Positions 8,056 to 33,597 of a DNA stretch of 64,000 bases are shown one piece after another (the first letter of the stretch is position 1; each line of letters starts with the position of its first letter). The position numbers and the translations under genes are program-made. Location: sequence record MW286157.1; one strand, given 5' to 3'. The notes beneath the pieces are model-generated. The model ran no database searches. It was not told the origin of the DNA and worked only from the letters and a program-made list of their open reading frames with translations. The DNA comes from Escherichia phage vB_EcoM-BECP11.

Positions 8056-10752
8056 ATGAAAGAATTTTATATCTCTATCGAAACAGTCGGAAATAATATT
8101 GTTGAGCGTTATATTGATGAAAACGGAAAGGAACGTACTCGTGAAGTAGAATATCTTCCGACTATGTTTAGGCATTGTAAGGAAGAGTCAAAGTACAAAG
8201 ACATTTACGGTAAAAATTGCGCTCCTCAAAAATTTCCATCAATGAAAGATGCACGAGATTGGATGAAACGAATGGAAGACATCGGTCTCGAAGCTCTCGG
8301 TATGAACGATTTTAAACTCGCTTATATCAGTGATACATATGGTTCAGAAATTGTTTATGACCGAAAATTTGTTCGTGTAGCTAACTGTGACATTGAGGTT
8401 ACTGGTGATAAATTTCCTGACCCAATGAAAGCAGAATATGAAATTGATGCTATCACTCATTATGATTCAATTGACGACCGTTTTTACGTCTTTGATTTGT
8501 TGAATTCAATGTACGGTTCAGTATCAAAATGGGATGCAAAGTTAGCTGCTAAGCTTGACTGTGAAGGTGGTGATGAAGTTCCTCAAGAAATTCTTGACCG
8601 AGTAATTTATATGCCATTTGATAATGAGCGCGATATGCTCATGGAATATATTAATCTCTGGGAACAGAAACGACCTGCTATTTTTACCGGTTGGAATATT
8701 GAGGGATTTGACGTTCCGTATATCATGAATCGTGTTAAAATGGTTCTGGGCGAACGCAGTATGAAACGCTTCTCTCCAATCGGTCGGGTAAAATCTAAAC
8801 TAATTCAAAATATGTACGGTAGCAAAGAAATTTATTCTATTGATGGCGTATCTATTCTTGATTATTTAGATTTATACAAGAAGTTCGCATTTACTAATTT
8901 GCCATCGTTCTCTTTGGAATCAGTTGCTCAACATGAAACCAAAAAAGGTAAATTGCCGTACGATGGTCCTATTAATAAACTTCGTGAGACTAATCATCAA
9001 CGATACATTAGTTATAACATCATTGACGTAGAATCAGTTCAAGCAATTGATAAAATTCGTGGGTTTATCGATCTAGTTTTAAGTATGTCTTATTACGCTA
9101 AAATGCCTTTTTCTGGTGTAATGAGTCCTATTAAAACTTGGGATGCTATTATTTTTAACTCATTGAAAGGTGAACATAAGGTTATTCCTCAACAAGGTTC
9201 GCACGTTAAACAAAGTTTTCCAGGTGCATTTGTGTTTGAACCTAAACCGATTGCTCGTCGATACATTATGAGTTTTGACTTGACGTCTCTGTATCCTAGC
9301 ATTATTCGTCAGGTTAACATTAGTCCTGAGACTATTCGTGGACAGTTTAAAGTTCATCCAATTCATGAATATATCGCAGGAACAGCTCCTAAGCCAAGTG
9401 ATGAATATTCTTGTTCTCCGAATGGATGGATGTATGATAAGCATCAAGAAGGTATCATTCCAAAGGAAATCGCTAAAGTATTTTTCCAGCGTAAAGATTG
9501 GAAAAAGAAAATGTTCGCTGAAGAAATGAATGCCGAAGCTATTAAAAAGATTATTATGAAAGGTGCAGGGTCTTGTTCAACTAAACCAGAAGTTGAACGA
9601 TATGTTAAGTTCAATGATGATTTCTTAAACGAATTATCGAATTACACTGAATCTGTTCTTAATAGTCTGATCGAAGAATGTGAAAAAGCAGCTACACTTG
9701 CTAACACAAATCAGCTGAACCGTAAAATTCTTATTAACAGTCTTTATGGTGCTCTTGGTAATATTCATTTCCGTTACTATGATTTGCGAAATGCTACTGC
9801 TATCACAATTTTCGGCCAAGTTGGTATTCAGTGGATTGCTCGTAAAATTAATGAATATCTGAATAAAGTATGCGGAACTAATGGCGAAGATTTCATTGCA
9901 GCAGGTGATACTGATTCGGTATATGTTTGTGTAGATAAAGTTATTGAAAAAGTTGGTCTTGACCGATTCAAAGAGCAGAACGATTTAGTTGAATTCATGA
10001 ATCAGTTCGGTAAGAAAAAGATGGAACCTATGATTGATGTTGCATATCGTGAGTTATGTGATTATATGAATAACCGCGAGCATCTGATGCATATGGACCG
10101 TGAAGCTATTTCTTGCCCTCCGCTTGGTTCAAAGGGTGTTGGTGGATTTTGGAAAGCGAAAAAACGTTATGCTCTGAACGTTTATGATATGGAAGATAAG
10201 CGATTTGCTGAACCACATCTAAAAATCATGGGTATGGAAACTCAGCAGAGTTCAACACCAAAAGCAGTACAAGAAGCTCTTGAAGAAAGTATTCGTCGTA
10301 TTCTTCAGGAAGGCGAAGAGTCTGTCCAAGAATACTACAAGAACTTTGAGAAAGAATATCGTCAACTTGACTATAAAGTTATTGCTGAAGTAAAAACCGC
10401 GAACGATATAGCGAAATATGACGATAAAGGTTGGCCAGGATTTAAATGTCCGTTCCACATTCGTGGTGTGCTAACTTATCGTCGAGCTGTTAGCGGTTTA
10501 GGTGTAGCTCCAATTTTGGATGGAAATAAAGTAATGGTTCTTCCATTACGTGAAGGAAATCCGTTTGGTGATAAGTGCATTGCTTGGCCGTCGGGTACAG
10601 AACTTCCAAAAGAAATTCGTTCTGACGTACTGTCTTGGATTGACTACTCAACTTTGTTCCAAAAATCGTTTGTTAAACCGCTTGCGGGTATGTGTGAATC
10701 GGCTGGTATGGACTATGAAGAAAAAGCTTCGTTAGACTTCCTGTTTGGCTGA
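8056..10752 (+). CDS. 43: DNA polymerase gp43 (family B, with 3'-5' exonuclease)
   Basis: 898 aa; exonuclease region, motif A NSLYGALG, motif C GDTDSVYV; size equals T4 gp43. Confidence 0.95.
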   Translation: MKEFYISIETVGNNIVERYIDENGKERTREVEYLPTMFRHCKEESKYKDIYGKNCAPQKFPSMKDARDWMKRMEDIGLEALGMNDFKLAYISDTYGSEIVYDRKFVRVANCDIEVTGDKFPDPMKAEYEIDAITHYDSIDDRFYVFDLLNSMYGSVSKWDAKLAAKLDCEGGDEVPQEILDRVIYMPFDNERDMLMEYINLWEQKRPAIFTGWNIEGFDVPYIMNRVKMVLGERSMKRFSPIGRVKSKLIQNMYGSKEIYSIDGVSILDYLDLYKKFAFTNLPSFSLESVAQHETKKGKLPYDGPINKLRETNHQRYISYNIIDVESVQAIDKIRGFIDLVLSMSYYAKMPFSGVMSPIKTWDAIIFNSLKGEHKVIPQQGSHVKQSFPGAFVFEPKPIARRYIMSFDLTSLYPSIIRQVNISPETIRGQFKVHPIHEYIAGTAPKPSDEYSCSPNGWMYDKHQEGIIPKEIAKVFFQRKDWKKKMFAEEMNAEAIKKIIMKGAGSCSTKPEVERYVKFNDDFLNELSNYTESVLNSLIEECEKAATLANTNQLNRKILINSLYGALGNIHFRYYDLRNATAITIFGQVGIQWIARKINEYLNKVCGTNGEDFIAAGDTDSVYVCVDKVIEKVGLDRFKEQNDLVEFMNQFGKKKMEPMIDVAYRELCDYMNNREHLMHMDREAISCPPLGSKGVGGFWKAKKRYALNVYDMEDKRFAEPHLKIMGMETQQSSTPKAVQEALEESIRRILQEGEESVQEYYKNFEKEYRQLDYKVIAEVKTANDIAKYDDKGWPGFKCPFHIRGVLTYRRAVSGLGVAPILDGNKVMVLPLREGNPFGDKCIAWPSGTELPKEIRSDVLSWIDYSTLFQKSFVKPLAGMCESAGMDYEEKASLDFLFG

Positions 10753-10765
10753 TAGAATAAATCTA

Positions 10766-10786
10766 GGGACCTCCGGGTCCCTTTTT
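10766..10786 (+). terminator. rho-independent terminator gggacc-tccg-ggtccc plus T5
   Basis: perfect 6 bp GC stem followed by ttttt after gene 43. Confidence 0.7.
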
Positions 10787-10868
10787 CATACAAGTAATAT
10801 AAATCTATACTTATGAAAAACAGATGATTCTGGACCTTTAGAATTCCCTAAAAAATTTTCACAAAACT

Positions 10869-10898
10869 GTTTACAAGACTGTTCTTCTGTGGTACTAT
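10869..10898 (+). promoter_or_regulatory. T4-type early promoter (-35 GTTTAC, 18 nt spacer, -10 TACTAT) with A/T-rich upstream element
   Basis: gtttac 10869-10874, tggtactat 10890-10898; near-identical copy at 38598-38627. Confidence 0.65.
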
Positions 10899-10935
10899 AC
10901 AACTATCAACTACTGATACAGATTTGGAGAATAAA

Positions 10936-11172
10936 ATGAAAATTGTTATGGGATGTTTAGCAGTTTGTTTAGTTGCATTAGTAGCAGTTCCATTTGTTAG
11001 TGTTGAAAATGATACTCAACCTGTGATTGAATCTAGCACCGTTATTCACACTAATGGTAAAATATCAGTTAAAATTGATGATAATCTTCATGTGAATACA
11101 AATGGATCTTTAGGTGTGCAAATGGGTAATACCTGCATAAGCACTACTGGAGCAATTACTACTTGCATTTGA
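10936..11172 (+). CDS. small secreted protein, 78 aa, N-terminal signal peptide
   Basis: ATG 10936 after ttggagaataaa leader; hydrophobic N-terminus, Thr-rich C-terminus. Confidence 0.5.
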   Translation: MKIVMGCLAVCLVALVAVPFVSVENDTQPVIESSTVIHTNGKISVKIDDNLHVNTNGSLGVQMGNTCISTTGAITTCI

Positions 11173-11182
11173 GGAAATTATT

Positions 11183-11563
11183 ATGAAAATCGCTATTTTG
11201 GTTATTGTATTAGGTCTTACTGGTTGTGTAGCTCAAGGACCGGTAGTAAATCAGTCTGATGTAGGAAAAATTGTAAACTGTTCAAGCAAATTTTATAATC
11301 CTAATGTCAAGTGTTATAAAGAAGCTCCAAAGCAAACAGTCGAACAAATGCAGGCGAATTTTGACGAAGCTATTCGTCCAGATGAATCTGCTCAAGCATA
11401 TCGTAATTCGGATGTAATTACACGCGAAGAAAAAATTGAAAACTACTGCGCCGAGCTTTGGGCTAATTGGGCCAATAATTACCAATGGCGTACTGGTAAA
11501 AATGCTCCGATGGAGTATGTAGTGAATTCTTATAATTCATGTGTAAAAAATTTGACTAAGTGA
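11183..11563 (+). CDS. putative lipoprotein, 126 aa
   Basis: signal peptide with lipobox LTGC (MKIAILVIVLGLTGC). Confidence 0.55.
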   Translation: MKIAILVIVLGLTGCVAQGPVVNQSDVGKIVNCSSKFYNPNVKCYKEAPKQTVEQMQANFDEAIRPDESAQAYRNSDVITREEKIENYCAELWANWANNYQWRTGKNAPMEYVVNSYNSCVKNLTK

Positions 11564-11570
11564 GGAAAAC

Positions 11571-11822
11571 ATGGAAACTTTAGTAGCAGGTTCAATTTTT
11601 ATGGTTTTAGTTTCAGGTGTGTTGGCTATTATTATATACATGCTTCCATGGTTTATCGCCTTGATGCGTGGGTCAAAATCGACAGTAGGAATCTTTTTCA
11701 CATCTTTACTGTTTAACTGGTCAATTATTGGTTGGTTTATTACATTTATTTGGTCAATTGCGGGTGAAACTAAAAAGTCTGCACAGCCAAATCAGGTAAT
11801 TATCATCAGAGAGAAGGAATGA
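11571..11822 (+). CDS. imm: immunity (superinfection exclusion) membrane protein Imm
   Basis: 83 aa, two hydrophobic helices, located between 43 and 42 as T4 imm. Confidence 0.75.
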   Translation: METLVAGSIFMVLVSGVLAIIIYMLPWFIALMRGSKSTVGIFFTSLLFNWSIIGWFITFIWSIAGETKKSAQPNQVIIIREKE

Positions 11823-11968
11823 AAAGCAAAATTATAACAGTGTTGCTTTTAATCTTGATGATTATAATAAGTATATACTATAGTGTAACGGTTCCTCTTA
11901 TGATTCCAACTATTATTTTAGGTTGGAGCTTATTACTGTTACAAGTTAAATATGAATGTATCAATTGA
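11819..11968 (+). CDS. 49 aa membrane peptide
   Basis: ATG 11819 overlaps imm stop (ATGA); almost entirely hydrophobic. Confidence 0.4.
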   Translation: MKSKIITVLLLILMIIISIYYSVTVPLMIPTIILGWSLLLLQVKYECIN

Positions 11969-11975
11969 GGTTTAA

Positions 11976-12716
11976 ATGATTAGTGACTCTATGACAGTTG
12001 AAGAAATCCGTCTTCATTTGGGGCTTGCATTAAAAGAAAAAGATTTCGTAGTTGATAAAACTGGTGTTAAAACTATTGAAATTATTGGCGCATCATTTGT
12101 AGCAGATGAACCGTTTATTTTTGGCGCTCTTAATGATGAATACATTCAGCGCGAACTTGAATGGTATAAATCTAAGAGCTTGTTTGTTAAAGATATTCCA
12201 GGTGAAACACCAAAGATTTGGCAGCAGGTAGCATCTTCTAAAGGCGAAATTAACTCGAATTATGGTTGGGCTATTTGGTCAGAAGATAACTATGCCCAGT
12301 ATGATATGTGTTTAGCTGAACTTGGTCAAAATCCTGATTCTCGACGTGGTATCATGATTTATACTCGTCCATCCATGCAATTTGACTACAATAAAGATGG
12401 TATGTCAGATTTCATGTGTACTAATACAGTACAGTACCTGATTCGTGATAAGAAAGTCAATGCAGTAGTAAGCATGCGCTCAAATGACGTGGTCTTCGGA
12501 TTCCGTAATGATTATGCATGGCAAAAATACGTATTAGATAAATTAGTATCTGATTTGAATGCCGGCGATTCAACTCGTCAGTATAAAGCAGGTTCTATTA
12601 TATGGAATGTCGGAAGTCTTCATGTATATTCTCGTCATTTTTACTTGGTTGATCATTGGTGGAATACTGGCGAAACTCATATTGTGAAAAAAGACTATAA
12701 AGGTGAGTGGAAATGA
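11976..12716 (+). CDS. 42: dCMP hydroxymethylase gp42
   Basis: 246 aa thymidylate-synthase-like fold protein; size and position as T4 gp42. Confidence 0.9.
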   Translation: MISDSMTVEEIRLHLGLALKEKDFVVDKTGVKTIEIIGASFVADEPFIFGALNDEYIQRELEWYKSKSLFVKDIPGETPKIWQQVASSKGEINSNYGWAIWSEDNYAQYDMCLAELGQNPDSRRGIMIYTRPSMQFDYNKDGMSDFMCTNTVQYLIRDKKVNAVVSMRSNDVVFGFRNDYAWQKYVLDKLVSDLNAGDSTRQYKAGSIIWNVGSLHVYSRHFYLVDHWWNTGETHIVKKDYKGEWK

Positions 12717-13555
12717 TTCAATTCGTAATTCCAAGTTATCAGCGTGTCGGGGCAGTTTCTGCCCTTGATATGTTTCCGACTGATTATGAACCCCATATTG
12801 TAGTGCGTGAACATGAAGAAAAAGCTTATCATGACGCTTATGGGTCTAGAGCTAAAATTATAACTATTCCTGATGATGTAAACGGAATTGCCGGTACTCG
12901 TAAAGCAATTACTGATATGTATGCAGGTCAACGAATTTGGATGATTGACGATGATACTACTATTCGTATGAGTTCAATGCGAAAAAGAGATGACCGTCGT
13001 TGTGTAGATAAAGTCAATCAATTAACCCATAAACAGTTCTATGAATTGATTCAATACGTTGAAGATGCCATGGATTGCGGGTATTATCATGGTCATGCTC
13101 GCCTACCAATTTTTAAAATTACTTCATCTTGGGGTAATTATCGTGAAAATTCATATGGATTCACGAATACATGGTATGACCTTGGAAAACTTACGACAGA
13201 ACAAATTGGGTATGGAAAAATTGATTTGTGTGAAGATATGTATGCATTTCTCAATTTAATTAATCAAGGTTATCCGCATTTGGCCTTGTTCAAATATCTG
13301 GTTGTATCTGGAAAAGCACAAGCTCCTGGCGGGTGCAGTTCAATTCGTAGTAATTCTAAACATAATAGAGCGCTTGAGCAAATCAATAGAGAGTTTCCAG
13401 AGCAAGCTCGTTGGAAAACTTCTAATATTGAAAAACGAAAATCGTTGGGTGAAGAAGACGAGCCATTAAAGGTTCTTCGCATGTGTGTTTCGCGTAAAGA
13501 AAAATCAGAAGCATTTCATAAATTTAATGCTATTCATCCGATAGCAGTTGATTAA
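12713..13555 (+). CDS. GT-A type glycosyltransferase in the beta-gt position (possibly beta-glucosyl-HMC-alpha-glucosyltransferase type)
   Basis: 280 aa; ATG 12713 overlaps gene 42 stop; DxD-like WMIDDDT motif; not T4 beta-gt (351 aa, unrelated sequence). Confidence 0.6.
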   Translation: MIQFVIPSYQRVGAVSALDMFPTDYEPHIVVREHEEKAYHDAYGSRAKIITIPDDVNGIAGTRKAITDMYAGQRIWMIDDDTTIRMSSMRKRDDRRCVDKVNQLTHKQFYELIQYVEDAMDCGYYHGHARLPIFKITSSWGNYRENSYGFTNTWYDLGKLTTEQIGYGKIDLCEDMYAFLNLINQGYPHLALFKYLVVSGKAQAPGGCSSIRSNSKHNRALEQINREFPEQARWKTSNIEKRKSLGEEDEPLKVLRMCVSRKEKSEAFHKFNAIHPIAVD

Positions 13556-17148: not shown

Positions 17149-17442
17149 ATGAAAAAATTTATTTTTGCTACAATTTTTACTTTGGCTTCTTGTGCTGCTC
17201 AGCCTGCTATGGCAGGTTATGATAAAGATTTGTGTGAATGGTCTATGACTGCAGATCAGACTGAAGTTGAAACTCAAATTGAAGCGGATATTATGAATAT
17301 CGTTGAGCGTGATCGCCCCAATATGAAAGTTGAAGTACAAAAACAGCTTAAATCAGGTGGTGTGATGCAGTATAATTATGTTCTGTATTGTGACCCTAAT
17401 TTTGATAACAAAAATATCGTAACCGAAATCACAGGTGAATAA
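17149..17442 (+). CDS. sp: Spackle-like periplasmic protein
   Basis: 97 aa with signal peptide MKKFIFATIFTLASCAAQPAMA; size and position match T4 sp (61.3). Confidence 0.65.
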   Translation: MKKFIFATIFTLASCAAQPAMAGYDKDLCEWSMTADQTEVETQIEADIMNIVERDRPNMKVEVQKQLKSGGVMQYNYVLYCDPNFDNKNIVTEITGE

Positions 17443-25448: not shown

Positions 25449-26764
25449 CATTTGATGATTTGACAGAAGGCCAGAAAAATGCCTTTAACATCGTTATGAG
25501 GGCTATTAAAGAAAAGAAACATCATGTAACTATTAATGGACCTGCTGGTACTGGTAAGACTACTCTTACTAAGTTCATCATTGAAGCTTTAATATCTACG
25601 GGTGAAACTGGTATCATTTTGGCAGCTCCTACTCATGCAGCTAAAAAGATTCTTTCAAAACTGTCGGGGAAAGAAGCGAGTACTATTCACAGTATTCTTA
25701 AAATTAACCCAGTTACGTATGAAGAAAACGTTCTTTTTGAACAGAAGGAAGTACCAGATTTAGCTAAATGCAGGGTATTAATCTGCGACGAAGTGTCAAT
25801 GTATGATAGAAAGCTATTTAAAATTCTGCTTTCAACTATTCCGCCGTGGTGCACAATAATTGGAATAGGTGATAATAAGCAAATTAGACCTGTTGATCCA
25901 GGAGAAAATACTGCTTATATCAGTCCATTCTTTACACACAAAGATTTTTATCAATGTGAACTTACTGAAGTTAAACGCAGTAATGCTCCTATTATTGATG
26001 TAGCTACTGATGTTCGCAACGGTAAGTGGATTTATGATAAAGTTGTTGACGGTCATGGAGTACGTGGATTTACTGGTGATACCGCTTTACGCGATTTTAT
26101 GGTAAATTATTTTTCAATCGTCAAATCACTAGATGATTTGTTTGAAAATCGCGTAATGGCATTTACGAATAAATCTGTTGACAAGTTAAATAGCATTATT
26201 CGTAAAAAGATTTTTGAAACTGATAAAGATTTTATTGTCGGTGAAATTATTGTAATGCAAGAACCGTTAATTAAAACGTATAAAATTGACGGAAAACCGG
26301 TATCAGAAATTATTTTTAATAACGGACAATTAGTTCGTATTATAGAAGCAGAGTATACATCAACCTTTGTTAAAGCTCGTGGTGTTCCTGGAGAATATCT
26401 AATTCGTCATTGGGATTTAACAGTAGAAACTTACGGCGATGATGAATATTATCGTGAAAAGATTAAAATAATTTCATCTGATGAAGAGCTATATAAGTTT
26501 AACCTGTTTTTAGGTAAAACGGCAGAAACTTATAAAAATTGGAATAAAGGCGGAAAAGCTCCGTGGAGTGATTTTTGGGATGCTAAATCACAGTTTAGTA
26601 AAGTGAAAGCACTTCCTGCATCAACATTCCATAAAGCTCAGGGTATGTCTGTAGACCGTGCTTTCATTTATACACCTTGTATTCATTACGCAGATGCTGA
26701 ATTAGCTCAACAACTTCTTTATGTTGGTGTAACACGTGGTCGTTATGATGTATTTTATGTGTGA
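25445..26764 (+). CDS. dda: Dda DNA helicase (SF1B)
   Basis: 439 aa; Walker A GPAGTGKTT, DEVSM Walker B; size equals T4 Dda. Confidence 0.9.
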   Translation: MTFDDLTEGQKNAFNIVMRAIKEKKHHVTINGPAGTGKTTLTKFIIEALISTGETGIILAAPTHAAKKILSKLSGKEASTIHSILKINPVTYEENVLFEQKEVPDLAKCRVLICDEVSMYDRKLFKILLSTIPPWCTIIGIGDNKQIRPVDPGENTAYISPFFTHKDFYQCELTEVKRSNAPIIDVATDVRNGKWIYDKVVDGHGVRGFTGDTALRDFMVNYFSIVKSLDDLFENRVMAFTNKSVDKLNSIIRKKIFETDKDFIVGEIIVMQEPLIKTYKIDGKPVSEIIFNNGQLVRIIEAEYTSTFVKARGVPGEYLIRHWDLTVETYGDDEYYREKIKIISSDEELYKFNLFLGKTAETYKNWNKGGKAPWSDFWDAKSQFSKVKALPASTFHKAQGMSVDRAFIYTPCIHYADAELAQQLLYVGVTRGRYDVFYV

Positions 26765-31072: not shown

Positions 31073-31444
31073 ATGTTTAAAATCGGTAAGAAATATCGCA
31101 TTTGTGAAGGTGAAGAACAGAAATATCTACTTTCTGCTAGTAATAGGAATAGTTCTATTAATGCTGTAATATCTACAAGCGAATTTATCGTTGAAGATAT
31201 GAAAGGTCATAATGTTACGATGATTAGTACAGCGTCTGGAAATAACGGAAAAATTCTTCACAGTATGCAGAGTAATGTTCTAATTTATGATGAAGAATTT
31301 GACTTCTTCAAAGAAGTTTCCGAAGATTTTGATTTTGAATGTACCATTACTATGAAATCTGGTGACCCTCTTTCTTTTACAGTTAAAGATGAAAGAAGCC
31401 GCTTGAGAATTATTAGTCTTCTTCAAGCCATTAAATTTGAGTGA
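31073..31444 (+). CDS. hypothetical protein, 123 aa
   Basis: ATG 31073, 2 nt after upstream stop. Confidence 0.5.
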   Translation: MFKIGKKYRICEGEEQKYLLSASNRNSSINAVISTSEFIVEDMKGHNVTMISTASGNNGKILHSMQSNVLIYDEEFDFFKEVSEDFDFECTITMKSGDPLSFTVKDERSRLRIISLLQAIKFE

Positions 31445-31449
31445 AAATT

Positions 31450-31710
31450 ATGAAATATATTAATCGTTCTATCGCGGCATTAGTATTAGCAGTGTCTTTA
31501 GCAGGATGTACTGATGCTGATAATGCAACCAAAGTTTTATCTTCAAGTGGTTTTACTAATATTGAAATCACTGGATATAATTGGTTCGGTTGCTCTGAAA
31601 ATGATTTCCAACATACTGGATTTCGTGCTATTGGACCTACTGGGCAGAAAGTAGAAGGAACAGTATGTTCTGGGCTGTTCTTTAAGGATTCAACTATTCG
31701 TTTTAAATAA
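31450..31710 (+). CDS. putative lipoprotein, 86 aa
   Basis: signal peptide with lipobox LAGC (IAALVLAVSLAGC). Confidence 0.5.
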   Translation: MKYINRSIAALVLAVSLAGCTDADNATKVLSSSGFTNIEITGYNWFGCSENDFQHTGFRAIGPTGQKVEGTVCSGLFFKDSTIRFK

Positions 31711-31735: not shown

Positions 31736-31779
31736 GATTGCCGGAGTATAATATTCCCGAAACCAAACGAGGATAAGTG

Positions 31780-33597
31780 ATGATTAAGAATGAAATTAAA
31801 ATTCTGAGCGATATTGAACATATCAAAAAGCGTAGTGGCATGTACATTGGCTCTTCTGCTAATGAAATGCATGAGCGCTTTCTGTTTGGTAAATGGGAAA
31901 GTGTTCAGTATGTACCTGGTCTTGTTAAGCTTATTGATGAAATTATCGATAACTCAGTCGATGAAGGTATTCGTACTAAATTTAAGTTCGCAAATAAAAT
32001 TAATGTTACCATTAAAAATAATCAGGTGACAGTTGAAGATAACGGTCGCGGTATTCCACAAGCGATGGTTAAAACACCTACTGGTGAAGAAATTCCTGGT
32101 CCTGTTGCTGCGTGGACTATTCCAAAAGCAGGTGGTAACTTTGGTGATGATAAAGAACGTGTCACCGGTGGTATGAATGGTGTTGGTTCTAGTTTAACTA
32201 ACATTTTTTCTGTGATGTTTGTCGGTGAAACTGGCGATGGTCAAAATAATATTGTAGTTCGTTGTTCAAATGGCATGGAAAATAAATCATGGGAAACTAT
32301 TCCAGGAAAATGGAAAGGAACTCGTGTTACTTTCATTCCTGATTTTATGTCATTTGAAACTAATGAGCTGTCCCAAGTTTATCTTGACATTACACTAGAT
32401 CGTCTTCAGACACTTGCTGTTGTTTATCCTGATATTCAATTTACTTTTAATGGTAAAAAGGTTCAGGGCAATTTTAAGAAATATGCACGGCAGTATGATG
32501 AACATGCTATTGTTCAAGAACAAGAAAATTGTTCTATTGCGGTTGGTCGTTCACCTGATGGTTTTCGTCAATTAACTTATGTGAATAACATTCACACTAA
32601 GAATGGTGGCCATCACATTGACTGTGTTATGGATGATATTTGTGAAGACCTTATTCCACAAATCAAACGTAAGTTCAAAATTGATGTAACTAAAGCACGT
32701 GTCAAAGAATGTTTGACTATCGTTATGTTTGTTCGTGATATGAAAAACATGCGATTTGATTCTCAAACTAAAGAACGACTTACTTCTCCTTTTGGTGAAA
32801 TTCGTAGTCATATTCAACTTGATGCTAAAAAGATTTCACGCGCTATTCTAAATAATGAAGCAATTTTAATGCCGATTATTGAAGCTGCTTTAGCACGTAA
32901 ATTAGCAGCAGAAAAAGCAGCAGAAACTAAAGCAGCTAAAAAGGCTTCTAAAGCTAAGGTTCATAAACATATCAAAGCGAATCTTTGCGGTAAAGATGCT
33001 GACACTACTCTTTTCTTGACTGAGGGTGATTCTGCTATCGGATATCTTATTGATGTTCGTGATAAAGAACTTCATGGTGGTTATCCATTGCGTGGTAAAG
33101 TTCTCAACAGTTGGGGTATGTCATATGCTGATATGCTTAAAAACAAAGAACTATTTGATATTTGCGCAATCACTGGATTAGTTCTTGGTGAAAAAGCTGA
33201 AAACTTGAATTATCATAATATTGCTATTATGACCGATGCTGACCATGATGGTTTAGGAAGCATTTATCCTTCTCTGCTCGGATTTTTTAGTAATTGGCCA
33301 GAACTGTTTGAACAAGGAAGAATTCGCTTTGTCAAAACTCCTGTAATCATCGCTCAGGTCGGTAAAAAACAAGAATGGTTTTATACAGTCGCTGAATATG
33401 AGAGTGCCAAAGATGCTCTACCTAAACATAGCATCCGTTATATTAAGGGACTTGGCTCTTTGGAAAAATCTGAATATCGTGAGATGATTCAAAACCCAGT
33501 ATATGATGTTGTTAAACTTCCTGAGAACTGGAAAGAGCTTTTTGAAATGCTCATGGGAGATAATGCTGACCTTCGTAAAGAATGGATGAGCCAGTAG
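31780..33597 (+). CDS. 39: topoisomerase II large subunit gp39 (GyrB-like), single uninterrupted gene
   Basis: 605 aa; ATPase and Toprim regions in one ORF, so no separate gene 60. Confidence 0.9.
   Translation: MIKNEIKILSDIEHIKKRSGMYIGSSANEMHERFLFGKWESVQYVPGLVKLIDEIIDNSVDEGIRTKFKFANKINVTIKNNQVTVEDNGRGIPQAMVKTPTGEEIPGPVAAWTIPKAGGNFGDDKERVTGGMNGVGSSLTNIFSVMFVGETGDGQNNIVVRCSNGMENKSWETIPGKWKGTRVTFIPDFMSFETNELSQVYLDITLDRLQTLAVVYPDIQFTFNGKKVQGNFKKYARQYDEHAIVQEQENCSIAVGRSPDGFRQLTYVNNIHTKNGGHHIDCVMDDICEDLIPQIKRKFKIDVTKARVKECLTIVMFVRDMKNMRFDSQTKERLTSPFGEIRSHIQLDAKKISRAILNNEAILMPIIEAALARKLAAEKAAETKAAKKASKAKVHKHIKANLCGKDADTTLFLTEGDSAIGYLIDVRDKELHGGYPLRGKVLNSWGMSYADMLKNKELFDICAITGLVLGEKAENLNYHNIAIMTDADHDGLGSIYPSLLGFFSNWPELFEQGRIRFVKTPVIIAQVGKKQEWFYTVAEYESAKDALPKHSIRYIKGLGSLEKSEYREMIQNPVYDVVKLPENWKELFEMLMGDNADLRKEWMSQ

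What the first reader, a model, noticed from the sequence alone, without database searches (positions are those of the whole stretch)
10936..11968. Envelope-targeted four-gene module around imm
A signal-peptide protein (78 aa), a lipoprotein with lipobox LTGC (126 aa), Imm (83 aa) and a 49 aa hydrophobic peptide form one coupled unit. All are predicted to act at the cell envelope, so the lipoprotein and secreted protein may be additional superinfection-exclusion or receptor-masking factors.
Basis: partly seen in the sequence, partly recalled or inferred. Interest (0 to 1): 0.45.

Follow-up and report, generated by a model that had tools for sequence, protein, structure and literature searches.

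The report
T-even phage imm locus, four small envelope genes
This is the ordinary early "imm" region of a T2/T6-like T-even phage. Its known superinfection-immunity gene imm is always paired with a lipoprotein gene (imm.1) across T4-like genera, while the other two small genes are a swappable accessory gene and a widely conserved tiny membrane peptide.

Summary
Four tightly packed ORFs lie at 10936-11968, between DNA polymerase (gene 43) and dCMP hydroxymethylase (gene 42), in a Tequatrovirus 99% identical to Shigella phage Sf23. They are a 78-aa protein with an N-terminal hydrophobic anchor or signal (orfA), the T4 Imm.1 homologue (lipobox LTGC), Imm, and a 49-aa two-helix peptide (gp42.1 in RB51). 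All four are coding by pN/pS.

The "module" is composite.
- imm.1-imm is a conserved pair. Every T4-like locus examined, in about 8 lineages and three gene orders, has a phrog_1754 lipoprotein beside imm. This includes RB69, where the pair sits next to spackle at a different locus.
- orfA fills a variable slot. The slot is empty in T4 and holds an unrelated cytoplasmic ORF in T2.
- The 49-aa peptide is intact but unannotated in T4 RefSeq. In Mosigvirus it stays behind gene 43 when imm moves.

Published data show that Imm alone excludes T4 by binding the tape-measure protein, and that imm.1 is dispensable in the laboratory. My best inference, untested, is that Imm.1 is a periplasmic accessory of the Imm injection block. 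Receptor masking is unlikely because Imm.1 is at least 95% identical in T4 and T2, which I recall using different receptors. The locus itself is already known; the pairing is a modest new lead.

The parts
10765..10782 (+). Intrinsic terminator after gene 43 (DNA polymerase, 8056-10752)
   Evidence: A 7-bp G+C-rich stem followed by a T run. The same site is annotated as a terminator in phage ASO78A.
10870..10898 (+). T4-type early promoter (GTTTAC ... TG-n-TACTAT) driving the unit
   Evidence: Promoter scan, 9 of 12 matches with a TG extension. Nearly identical in T4. Annotated as an early promoter in ASO78A.
10936..11172 (+). orfA: 78-aa accessory protein with an N-terminal signal anchor or signal peptide (residues 3-23), a beta-rich C-terminal part and Cys67/Cys77. 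It is a variable cassette, not part of the conserved core.
   Evidence: phrog_4189, E 4.6e-30. Found in 325 phage records at 60-99% identity. A clean 247-bp indel relative to T4. T2 carries an unrelated ORF in the same slot. pN/pS 0.43. The AF2 model is weak (pLDDT 57) and shows six short strands.
11183..11563 (+). imm.1: 126-aa lipoprotein (lipobox LTGC, Cys15, Val at +2), DUF5481 / phrog_1754. Conserved partner gene of imm.
   Evidence: PF17578, E 5e-72. phrog_1754. 98.4% identical to T4 Imm.1. pN/pS 0.05. C89 and C120 are invariant over 13 family members. AF2 gives a confident C-terminal helical hairpin, residues 81-125.
11571..11822 (+). imm: 83-aa inner-membrane superinfection immunity protein
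   Evidence: PF14373, E 7.7e-16. 98.8-100% identical to T4-group Imm. R33 and W50, shown to matter for function in bioRxiv 10.64898/2026.03.06.709160, are present and invariant across 7 genera.
11819..11968 (+). orfD (gp42.1 of RB51): 49-aa peptide with two hydrophobic helices and a conserved C-terminal K-[YF]-E-C-[FI]-N tail. Its start overlaps the imm stop (ATGA).
   Evidence: phrog_3610, E 8e-26. 762 phage records. Intact but unannotated in T4. Present in Gaprivervirus, Dhakavirus, Mosigvirus and Winklervirus. pN/pS 0.29.
11976..12716 (+). Gene 42 (dCMP hydroxymethylase), co-transcribed, 7 nt after orfD. Listed for context.
   Evidence: PF00303 and phrog_160. Annotated in Sf23.
12707..13555 (+). 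beta-glucosyl-HMC-alpha-glucosyltransferase (T2/T6-type), overlapping the end of gene 42. Listed for context.
   Evidence: phrog_842, E 5.7e-89, and PF20691.

Best explanation
This is the standard early transcription unit downstream of gene 43 in a T2/T6-like Tequatrovirus. It has three evolutionarily separable parts. (1) A conserved two-gene core, imm.1-imm. Imm is the inner-membrane protein that blocks DNA entry of superinfecting T-even phages by binding the tape-measure protein gp29 (published). Imm.1 is made with it as an exported lipoprotein and is predicted to be anchored in the outer membrane because residue +2 is never Asp. Its mature part carries a small disulfide-braced helical domain. 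I infer that Imm.1 is a periplasmic accessory to the Imm injection block. It could engage the incoming tail tip or tape-measure protein, or stabilise or position Imm. It would be a second layer, comparable in logic to Spackle, and not a receptor mask. (2) orfA is an exported or membrane-anchored small protein that occupies a swappable slot between the early promoter and imm.1. It is an accessory gene of unknown role, relaxed or diversifying, and not specifically tied to imm. (3) orfD (42.1) is a conserved two-helix membrane peptide. Its linkage is to the position downstream of gene 43, just ahead of the DNA-modification genes (hmC or arabinosyl-hmC), rather than to imm. Shown: gene identities, export signals in the sequence, purifying selection and the conserved pairing. 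Inferred: lipidation and outer-membrane sorting, the disulfides, and any role of Imm.1 in exclusion. Sub-confidences: gene identities 0.95; Imm.1 is an exported lipoprotein 0.85; Imm.1 works with Imm in exclusion about 0.4; orfA is an exclusion factor about 0.1.
For: Identity: the region is 99.4% identical to Sf23 and matches 518 phage records; T4, Sf23 and ASO78A annotations agree; Pfam and PHROG hits. Pairing: RB69 has imm.1-imm-sp at the 61.x locus, away from gene 43. Gaprivervirus and Dhakavirus have 43-imm-orfD-lipoprotein. Klebsiella Roth66, Citrobacter Moonvirus and Serratia Muldoon have lipoprotein-imm. L099 has imm followed directly by the lipoprotein. In an Imm-profile scan of IMG/VR, every T4-like locus analysed (20, plus the Muldoon contig checked) had a lipobox ORF within two genes of imm. 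None of about 45 non-T4-like Imm-domain loci did. All 23 lipobox ORFs among 669 non-imm ORFs were in the T4-like loci. Reciprocally, all 9 lipoprotein-found loci tested, of 13 recovered, carry imm next door. Three divergent metagenomic DUF5481 representatives are each followed 7-15 nt later by a PF14373 gene. Homology of the lipoproteins: all hit phrog_1754 over full length, E 1e-15 to 1e-52, and hhalign on mature parts gives 93% probability, E 2.4e-7. Export: the lipobox is kept, residue +2 is V/G/A/S/Q, and there are 2 or 4 further cysteines. Selection: pN/pS is 0.05 for imm.1 and 0.04 for imm. Imm mechanism and sufficiency: bioRxiv 10.64898/2026.03.06.709160. orfA as a cassette. orfD position.
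Against: No experiment links Imm.1 to exclusion. Plasmid-borne Imm alone excludes T4. imm.1 tolerates transposon insertion at 31 of 31 TA sites, and its knock-down has no fitness effect, although those assays do not measure phage-phage competition. Structure prediction is confident only for a generic helical hairpin, and fold searches give no functional analogue. Gene order in T4-like genomes is broadly conserved, so part of the adjacency could be inherited synteny. The roughly 8 lineages are not fully independent. One family member (P0004) lacks the lipid-anchor cysteine, so anchoring is not essential to the family.
Confidence: 0.55

Rival explanations
1. Imm.1 is a receptor-masking lipoprotein of the T5 Llp / Cor type. 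It would sit in the outer membrane and block the phage receptor so that further phages cannot adsorb or trigger.
For: It has a conserved lipobox and a +2 residue compatible with outer-membrane sorting. It is expressed from an early promoter. Phage lipoproteins that mask receptors exist (Llp: PMC9586334, listed).
Against: Imm.1 is at least 95% identical in 501 Tequatrovirus records, including T4 (98.4%) and T2 (97.6%); from my own knowledge these phages use different outer-membrane receptors. There is no PHROG or Pfam similarity to Cor or Llp. The only hit is a 0-stretch match of the Muldoon signal peptide to phrog_1119. P0004 is a non-lipidated variant. From my recollection of classical work (not re-read here), superinfecting T-even phages still adsorb and eject DNA into the periplasm of infected cells.
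Confidence: 0.05
2. Imm.1 has an envelope function unrelated to Imm. It might, for example, inhibit the tail lysozyme or stabilise the murein or outer membrane against lysis from without, or act against a host envelope defence. On this view it sits beside imm only because early envelope genes are co-regulated.
For: Periplasmic features. In RB69 the neighbour on the other side of imm is spackle, a gp5 lysozyme inhibitor (PMC7677548, listed). Imm works without Imm.1.
Against: The pair stays together through relocation and through three different gene orders, while other neighbours change. That is more than co-regulation requires. There is no similarity to Spackle or to known lysozyme inhibitors.
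Confidence: 0.25
3. All four genes, orfA and orfD included, form one dedicated superinfection-exclusion operon.
For: Tight spacing, a shared promoter and predicted envelope location for all four. orfD follows imm with an overlapping start in Tequatrovirus, Gaprivervirus, Dhakavirus and two metagenomic lineages.
Against: orfA is absent from T4, replaced by an unrelated hydrophilic ORF in T2-type phages (31 records), and reduced to a scar in CT01. orfD stays downstream of gene 43, after an arabinose-5-phosphate isomerase gene, in Mosigvirus and Winklervirus while imm is elsewhere or absent there. It is missing next to imm in Moonvirus, Roth66, Muldoon and L108. The same tight spacing continues into gene 42.
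Confidence: 0.08
4. orfA and/or orfD are not real genes but chance ORFs in AT-rich spacer DNA.
For: Both are short. orfD is unannotated in T4 RefSeq. A 49-codon open frame has a few-percent chance in AT-rich DNA (my estimate).
Against: pN/pS is 0.43 and 0.29, with dozens of synonymous changes. Both have PHROG families. The orfD protein motif is conserved across genera at 47-63% identity. Both have Shine-Dalgarno sequences and, for orfD, an overlapping start. orfA keeps its reading frame and its cysteines across alleles only 76-83% identical.
Confidence: 0.04

Closest known systems
Phage T4 imm locus (genes imm.1 and imm, NC_000866 26373-27013)
   Same: Same position between genes 43 and 42. 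Same promoter and terminator. Imm.1 is 98.4% and Imm 98.8% identical. The 49-aa ORF is also present in T4.
   Different: The window carries the extra 78-aa orfA (a 247-bp indel). Imm.1 has LTGC where T4 has LAGC and is one residue longer. T4 RefSeq does not annotate the 49-aa ORF and labels imm.1 'iduronate sulfatase'.
T4 Spackle (Sp), a periplasmic inhibitor of the gp5 tail lysozyme (PMC7677548)
   Same: A small, early, exported protein with cysteines that acts in the periplasm as a second exclusion layer beside Imm. In RB69 sp lies directly after imm.1-imm. This is the closest functional analogy for what Imm.1 may do.
   Different: No sequence or PHROG relationship. From the literature as I recall it, Sp is released by signal peptidase I, whereas Imm.1 has a conserved lipobox. 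No target of Imm.1 is known.
T5 Llp and lambdoid Cor: outer-membrane lipoproteins that block the FhuA receptor
   Same: Phage-encoded small lipoproteins used for superinfection exclusion.
   Different: No homology. Imm.1 is nearly identical in T4 and T2, phages that I recall using different receptors. One family member is not lipidated.
HK97 gp15 and pore-forming colicin immunity proteins (cited in bioRxiv 10.64898/2026.03.06.709160)
   Same: Inner-membrane proteins that stop a pore-forming or tape-measure domain from opening a channel. This applies to Imm, the core of the locus.
   Different: The account read here mentions no lipoprotein partner for these systems. The Imm.1 pairing seems specific to T4-like phages: 0 of about 45 other Imm-domain loci have it.

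Membership tests
Imm_superinfect (PF14373) / T4 Imm | Domain match above the Pfam gathering score | tested here: met
   58.2 bits against a cutoff of 27.9, E 7.7e-16. phrog_1039 'immunity to superinfection', E 3.6e-32.
Imm_superinfect (PF14373) / T4 Imm | Residues shown to matter for exclusion (R33, W50) are present | tested here: met
   Both are present in the window protein and invariant in a 7-genus alignment. The mutational data are in bioRxiv 10.64898/2026.03.06.709160.
Imm_superinfect (PF14373) / T4 Imm | Blocks DNA entry of superinfecting phage; binds tape-measure protein gp29 | not testable with these tools
   Inferred from 98.8-100% identity to T4-group Imm.
Bacterial lipoprotein (signal peptidase II substrate) | Positively charged N-terminus, uncharged hydrophobic stretch, lipobox [LVI][ASTVI][GAS]C | tested here: met
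   MKIAILVIVLGLTGC, Cys15. A lipobox is kept in 21 of 22 family sequences across genera.
Bacterial lipoprotein (signal peptidase II substrate) | Actual lipidation, and outer-membrane versus inner-membrane sorting | not testable with these tools
   Residue +2 is V/G/A/S/Q and never Asp. By the E. coli +2 rule (established knowledge) this predicts the outer membrane.
DUF5481 (PF17578) / phrog_1754 (Imm.1 family) | Profile match over the mature domain | tested here: met
   PF17578, 239 bits. phrog_1754, E 3.6e-44. The family has only 6 representatives at 50% identity among 1.84 billion proteins.
DUF5481 (PF17578) / phrog_1754 (Imm.1 family) | Located next to an imm gene (a feature proposed here, not a curated one) | tested here: met
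   7 nt upstream of imm in the window. The same holds in all lineages sampled.
Receptor-blocking exclusion lipoproteins (T5 Llp, Cor) | Sequence or profile similarity to Llp or Cor | tested here: not met
   No such PHROG or Pfam hit for the window protein. Only a signal-peptide-level, 0-stretch hit of the Muldoon homologue to phrog_1119.
Receptor-blocking exclusion lipoproteins (T5 Llp, Cor) | Sequence tracks the receptor specificity of the phage | tested here: not met
   At least 95% identity in T4, T2 and 499 other Tequatrovirus records. Their differing receptors are from established knowledge.
Sec-type cleavable signal peptide (claimed for the 78-aa protein) | Short charged N-terminus, hydrophobic stretch of 7-15 residues, small residues at -3 and -1 | tested here: inconclusive
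   K2 is followed by 21 uncharged residues, then E24-N25-D26. The candidate cleavage site V-S-V is poor. Variants carry 7-residue duplications inside the hydrophobic stretch. This fits a signal anchor at least as well. No SignalP was run.
Anti-phage defence systems (PADLOC) | Match to a known defence protein model | tested here: not met
   Only chance-level hits, E 0.005-0.04.

The most novel reading that the evidence does not exclude
Imm and Imm.1 form a two-component block on DNA injection that is specific to T4-like phages. On this reading the lipoprotein captures or mis-positions the emerging tail tip or tape-measure protein in the periplasm and hands it to Imm at the inner membrane. Its fast divergence between genera (34% identity between T4 and RB69, against 65% for Imm) would then help set which T-even relatives are excluded. 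This would add a missing partner to the newly solved Imm-gp29 mechanism.
Probability: 0.3. Interest if true: 0.6.

Novelty: already known. Interest (0 to 1): 0.33.

Why it matters
The locus is ordinary and is annotated in hundreds of sequenced T-even phages. The comparison does turn one vague "hypothetical membrane protein" into a specific question. Imm.1-family lipoproteins accompany imm in every T4-like lineage sampled. How Imm blocks genome delivery has only just been worked out, and that account does not mention a lipoprotein partner. A simple deletion and co-expression experiment could show whether T-even exclusion has a third, periplasmic component. The work also corrects annotation: there is an unannotated 49-aa gene in T4 RefSeq, and the "iduronate sulfatase" label on imm.1 is spurious.

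Tried and rejected
- Word-indexed homologue search for Imm.1 returned only near-identical clusters. A full phmmer scan of 1.84 billion representatives found just 6.
- A plain HMM of the short DUF5481 group did not detect the long lipoproteins (E 1-10). Homology was settled by PHROG profiles and hhalign.
- AF2 on orfA was too weak (pLDDT 57) to justify a fold search.
- A single profile of all lipoproteins was too diverse for the locus scan, so three subgroup scans were run instead.
- NCBIfam, PADLOC and PDB sequence searches were empty.
- Literature searches for imm.1 and DUF5481 found no functional study. Most "imm.1" hits were DOI strings.
- Rejected ideas: that orfA is a lipoprotein (Cys7 and Cys11 lie too close to the N-terminus, and only duplication variants create an LAAC box); and that the P0004 context is a third genomic location (more likely another cassette, frd.3-like, in the same variable slot).
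Full report
WHAT IS THERE

The window is a Tequatrovirus. Region 10700-12000 is 99.4% identical to Shigella phage Sf23, and 518 phage records match it. Gene 43 (DNA polymerase, 8056-10752) ends at a stem-loop terminator (10765-10782). A T4-type early promoter follows at 10870-10898.
- orfA, 10936-11172, 78 aa
- imm.1, 11183-11563, 126 aa
- imm, 11571-11822, 83 aa
- orfD, 11819-11968, 49 aa

The gaps between them are 10, 7 and -4 nt. The tight spacing continues with 7 nt to gene 42 (dCMP hydroxymethylase, 11976-12716). Gene 42 overlaps a T2/T6-type beta-glucosyl-HMC-alpha-glucosyltransferase gene (12707-13555). No terminator interrupts this stretch. The coupled unit is therefore six genes, not four.

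IDENTITIES

- The 126-aa protein is the homologue of T4 Imm.1 (98.4% identity). It matches Pfam DUF5481 (E 5e-72) and phrog_1754.
- The 83-aa protein is Imm (PF14373; 98.8-100% identical to T4-group Imm).
- The 49-aa peptide is phrog_3610 and is annotated gp42.1 in RB51.
- The 78-aa protein is phrog_4189, of unknown function.

ARE THE SMALL ORFS REAL?

Nei-Gojobori counts against 9-12 Tequatrovirus relatives give the pooled pN/pS values below.

| Gene | pN/pS |
|---|---|
| gene 43 (C-terminal end) | 0.00 |
| imm.1 | 0.05 |
| imm | 0.04 |
| gene 42 | 0.05 |
| orfA | 0.43 (80 synonymous, 114 non-synonymous differences) |
| orfD | 0.29 |

All four are coding. orfA and orfD are under weaker or diversifying constraint.

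EXPORT SIGNALS

- Imm.1 starts MKIAILVIVLGLTGC, a canonical lipobox with Cys15. Twenty-one of 22 family sequences from several genera keep a lipobox. Residue +2 is V, G, A, S or Q and never Asp. By the E. coli +2 rule (established knowledge) this predicts outer-membrane sorting. The mature part always has 2 or 4 further cysteines, and C89 and C120 are invariant. This fits disulfides in the periplasm.
- AF2 is confident only for a C-terminal helical hairpin, residues 81-125, which those two cysteines would bridge.
- One metagenomic relative (P0004) has a signal-peptidase-I type leader and no lipid cysteine.
- orfA has K2, then 21 uncharged residues, then E-N-D, and two conserved C-terminal cysteines. 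The cleavage site is poor, and variants carry 7-residue duplications within the hydrophobic stretch. A signal anchor is at least as likely as a cleaved signal peptide.
- orfD has a positively charged N-terminus, two hydrophobic helices separated by a proline-containing turn, and a conserved tail K-[YF]-E-C-[FI]-N. Both ends are probably cytoplasmic (inference).

THE MODULE IS COMPOSITE

orfA is a cassette in a variable slot.
- Alignment with T4 shows orfA as a clean 247-bp indel. In T4, imm.1 sits directly behind what is orfA's Shine-Dalgarno sequence in the window, and both ORFs begin ATGAAAAT.
- orfA occurs in 325 phage records, whereas Imm.1 at 95% identity or more occurs in 501.
- T2, RB27, RB51 and about 28 further records carry an unrelated, hydrophilic 83-aa ORF (phrog_18567) in the same slot.
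- Phage CT01 has only a scar, with a duplicated leader.
- A metagenomic relative has an frd.3-like gene there.

orfD is intact in T4 but unannotated.
- It lies at NC_000866 complement(26227..26376), inside the "empty" 153-bp gap between imm and gene 42.
- It follows imm with an overlapping start in Tequatrovirus, Gaprivervirus, Dhakavirus and two metagenomic lineages.
- In Mosigvirus and Winklervirus it stays downstream of gene 43, coupled to an arabinose-5-phosphate isomerase gene, while imm is elsewhere or absent at that locus.
- It is absent next to imm in Moonvirus, Klebsiella phage Roth66, Serratia phage Muldoon and L108.
- Its linkage is therefore positional rather than specific to imm.

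THE CONSERVED CORE IS IMM.1-IMM

- In RB69 the order is 61.4, imm.1, imm, sp (spackle). This is a different locus from gene 43, so the pair moved together and now lies next to the other known exclusion gene.
- In Gaprivervirus and Dhakavirus the order is 43, imm, orfD, then a 166-167-aa lipoprotein.
- In Roth66, Moonvirus and Muldoon a 146-148-aa lipoprotein gene precedes imm.
- In L099 imm is followed directly by the lipoprotein gene.
- All these lipoproteins hit phrog_1754 over their full length (E 1e-15 to 1e-52). With signal peptides removed, hhalign links the short and long groups (93% probability, E 2.4e-7). Pfam DUF5481 covers only the short group.

I also ran census-style checks.
- An Imm-profile scan of IMG/VR returned 75 loci. 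Every T4-like locus analysed (20, plus the Muldoon contig checked) has a lipobox ORF within two genes of imm.
- None of about 45 non-T4-like Imm-domain loci does. All 23 lipobox ORFs among 669 other ORFs lie in the T4-like loci.
- The four best-matching loci without a lipoprotein (L026, L033, L036, L037) are not T4-like.
- The background rate is 3 lipobox ORFs among 106 ORFs in the window.
- Reciprocally, three scans with lipoprotein subgroups recovered 13 loci. All 9 that I tested carry imm next door.
- The three divergent metagenomic DUF5481 representatives are each followed 7-15 nt later by a PF14373 gene.

Caveat: the lineages number about eight and share ancestry, so this is strong circumstantial evidence, not proof, of a functional link.

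WHAT IS KNOWN EXPERIMENTALLY

- A 2026 preprint (10.64898/2026.03.06.709160) shows that Imm binds the helical-bundle domain of the tape-measure protein gp29. It also shows that plasmid-borne Imm alone lowers T4 plating and that R33A and W50A weaken it. Both residues are present here and are invariant across genera. The preprint does not mention Imm.1.
- HIDEN-SEQ transposon data list T4 imm (20 of 20 TA sites hit) and imm.1 (31 of 31) as non-essential. In phage Bas37 the four genes between genes 42 and 43 also tolerate insertions.
- CRISPRi-ART scores imm.1 "Not Fit".
- Neither screen measures phage-phage competition, so dispensability is what one would expect of an exclusion factor.
- I found no functional study of Imm.1, orfA or orfD in the searchable literature. 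One comparative paper notes Imm.1 among markers of the T4 group versus the RB69 group (PMC5885020).

MOST LIKELY MECHANISM

Imm is the inner-membrane block on gp29 (published). Imm.1 is made with it from the same early transcript, exported, lipidated and probably tethered to the inner face of the outer membrane. There a small disulfide-braced helical domain on a flexible linker hangs in the periplasm (inferred). The invariable pairing with imm, its persistence through relocation and reordering, and the RB69 arrangement imm.1-imm-sp make a supporting role in the injection block the best single hypothesis (about 0.4). An unrelated periplasmic function is the main rival (about 0.25).

Receptor masking is unlikely (about 0.05).
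- Imm.1 is nearly invariant in T4 and T2. That these phages use different receptors is from my own knowledge.
- It has no similarity to Llp or Cor.
- One relative is not lipid-anchored.
- As I recall the classical work, superinfecting T-even phages still adsorb to infected cells.

orfA is an accessory envelope protein of unknown role. Its patchy presence, divergent alleles and pN/pS of 0.43 are compatible with an arms-race function, but nothing ties it to imm. orfD is a conserved membrane peptide of unknown role.

COMPARISON AND NOVELTY

The locus is the known T-even imm region, so nothing in the sequence itself is new. Structure and sequence searches give no analogue for Imm.1. The conserved Imm.1-Imm pairing across T4-like genera is a modest and, as far as I could search, unreported lead. 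It makes a simple experiment worthwhile.

VERDICT

The feature is already known. Interest is about 0.33.

Noticed in passing
window 11819-11968; T4 NC_000866 complement(26227..26376) = L001 4228-4377: The 49-aa ORF (gp42.1 in RB51) is intact in T4, with 2 amino-acid differences. It is not annotated in T4 RefSeq or in the T4 gene tables used by two functional-genomics papers, which show a 153-bp 'gap' between imm and gene 42.
   Followed up: yes
T4 NC_000866 26636-27013 (imm.1) and several RefSeq phage records: imm.1 is labelled 'iduronate sulfatase' in RefSeq. The 126-aa protein hits only DUF5481 and no sulfatase domain, so the label looks spurious.
   Followed up: partly
window 11571-11976: CRISPRi-ART scored T4 imm as 'Fit', whereas transposon data call it non-essential. 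The chain of overlapping or closely spaced starts (imm, unannotated orfD, essential gene 42) could make imm knock-down polar on gene 42. This is speculation and was not tested.
   Followed up: no
window 17149-17442: The Spackle (sp) homologue (phrog_1586, E 5.6e-47) lies 5 kb downstream. Its signal peptide also passes a simple lipobox screen (LASC). In RB69 sp lies directly after imm.1-imm.
   Followed up: partly
window 31441-31710: A second conserved lipoprotein-like ORF of 89 aa (lipobox LAGC, phrog_902, unknown function) lies just upstream of a 606-aa ORF (31777-33597). It is found in 1065 phage records, including Klebsiella and Enterobacter phages.
   Followed up: partly
L093 937-1188 (phage T2, PV648364.1): T2-type phages carry an unrelated hydrophilic 83-aa ORF (phrog_18567) in the slot where the window has orfA. 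It is found in 31 Tequatrovirus records and, at about 54% identity, in 7 more distant records, the listed ones being about 170-kb Escherichia phages (dhaeg, IME08, EcWhh-1).
   Followed up: partly
L091 1200-2060 (Shigella phage CT01): A rearrangement scar. A duplicated promoter/leader and imm.1 5' end flank a fragment of orfA, which suggests recurrent recombination between the similar 5' ends of orfA and imm.1 (both begin ATGAAAAT).
   Followed up: partly
orfA relatives P0012, P0018; L090 1426-1683: Some orfA alleles have a 7-residue duplication inside the hydrophobic N-terminus. In P0018 this creates an LAAC lipobox-like motif, which is probably why UniRef names that cluster 'Lipoprotein'.
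   Followed up: partly
L007 2318-4820 (Mosigvirus KMB38); L005 (Erwinia phage Gravdalen): In arabinosyl-hmC-type phages the orfD homologue is start-overlapped with an arabinose-5-phosphate isomerase gene and precedes a sugar nucleotidyltransferase/kinase gene. The tiny peptide therefore always sits just ahead of the DNA-modification genes.
   Followed up: partly
window 12707-13555: The gene after gene 42 is a beta-glucosyl-HMC-alpha-glucosyltransferase (phrog_842; Pfam TAGT), not the T4 beta-glucosyltransferase. This marks the phage as T2/T6-like in its DNA sugar modification.
   Followed up: no
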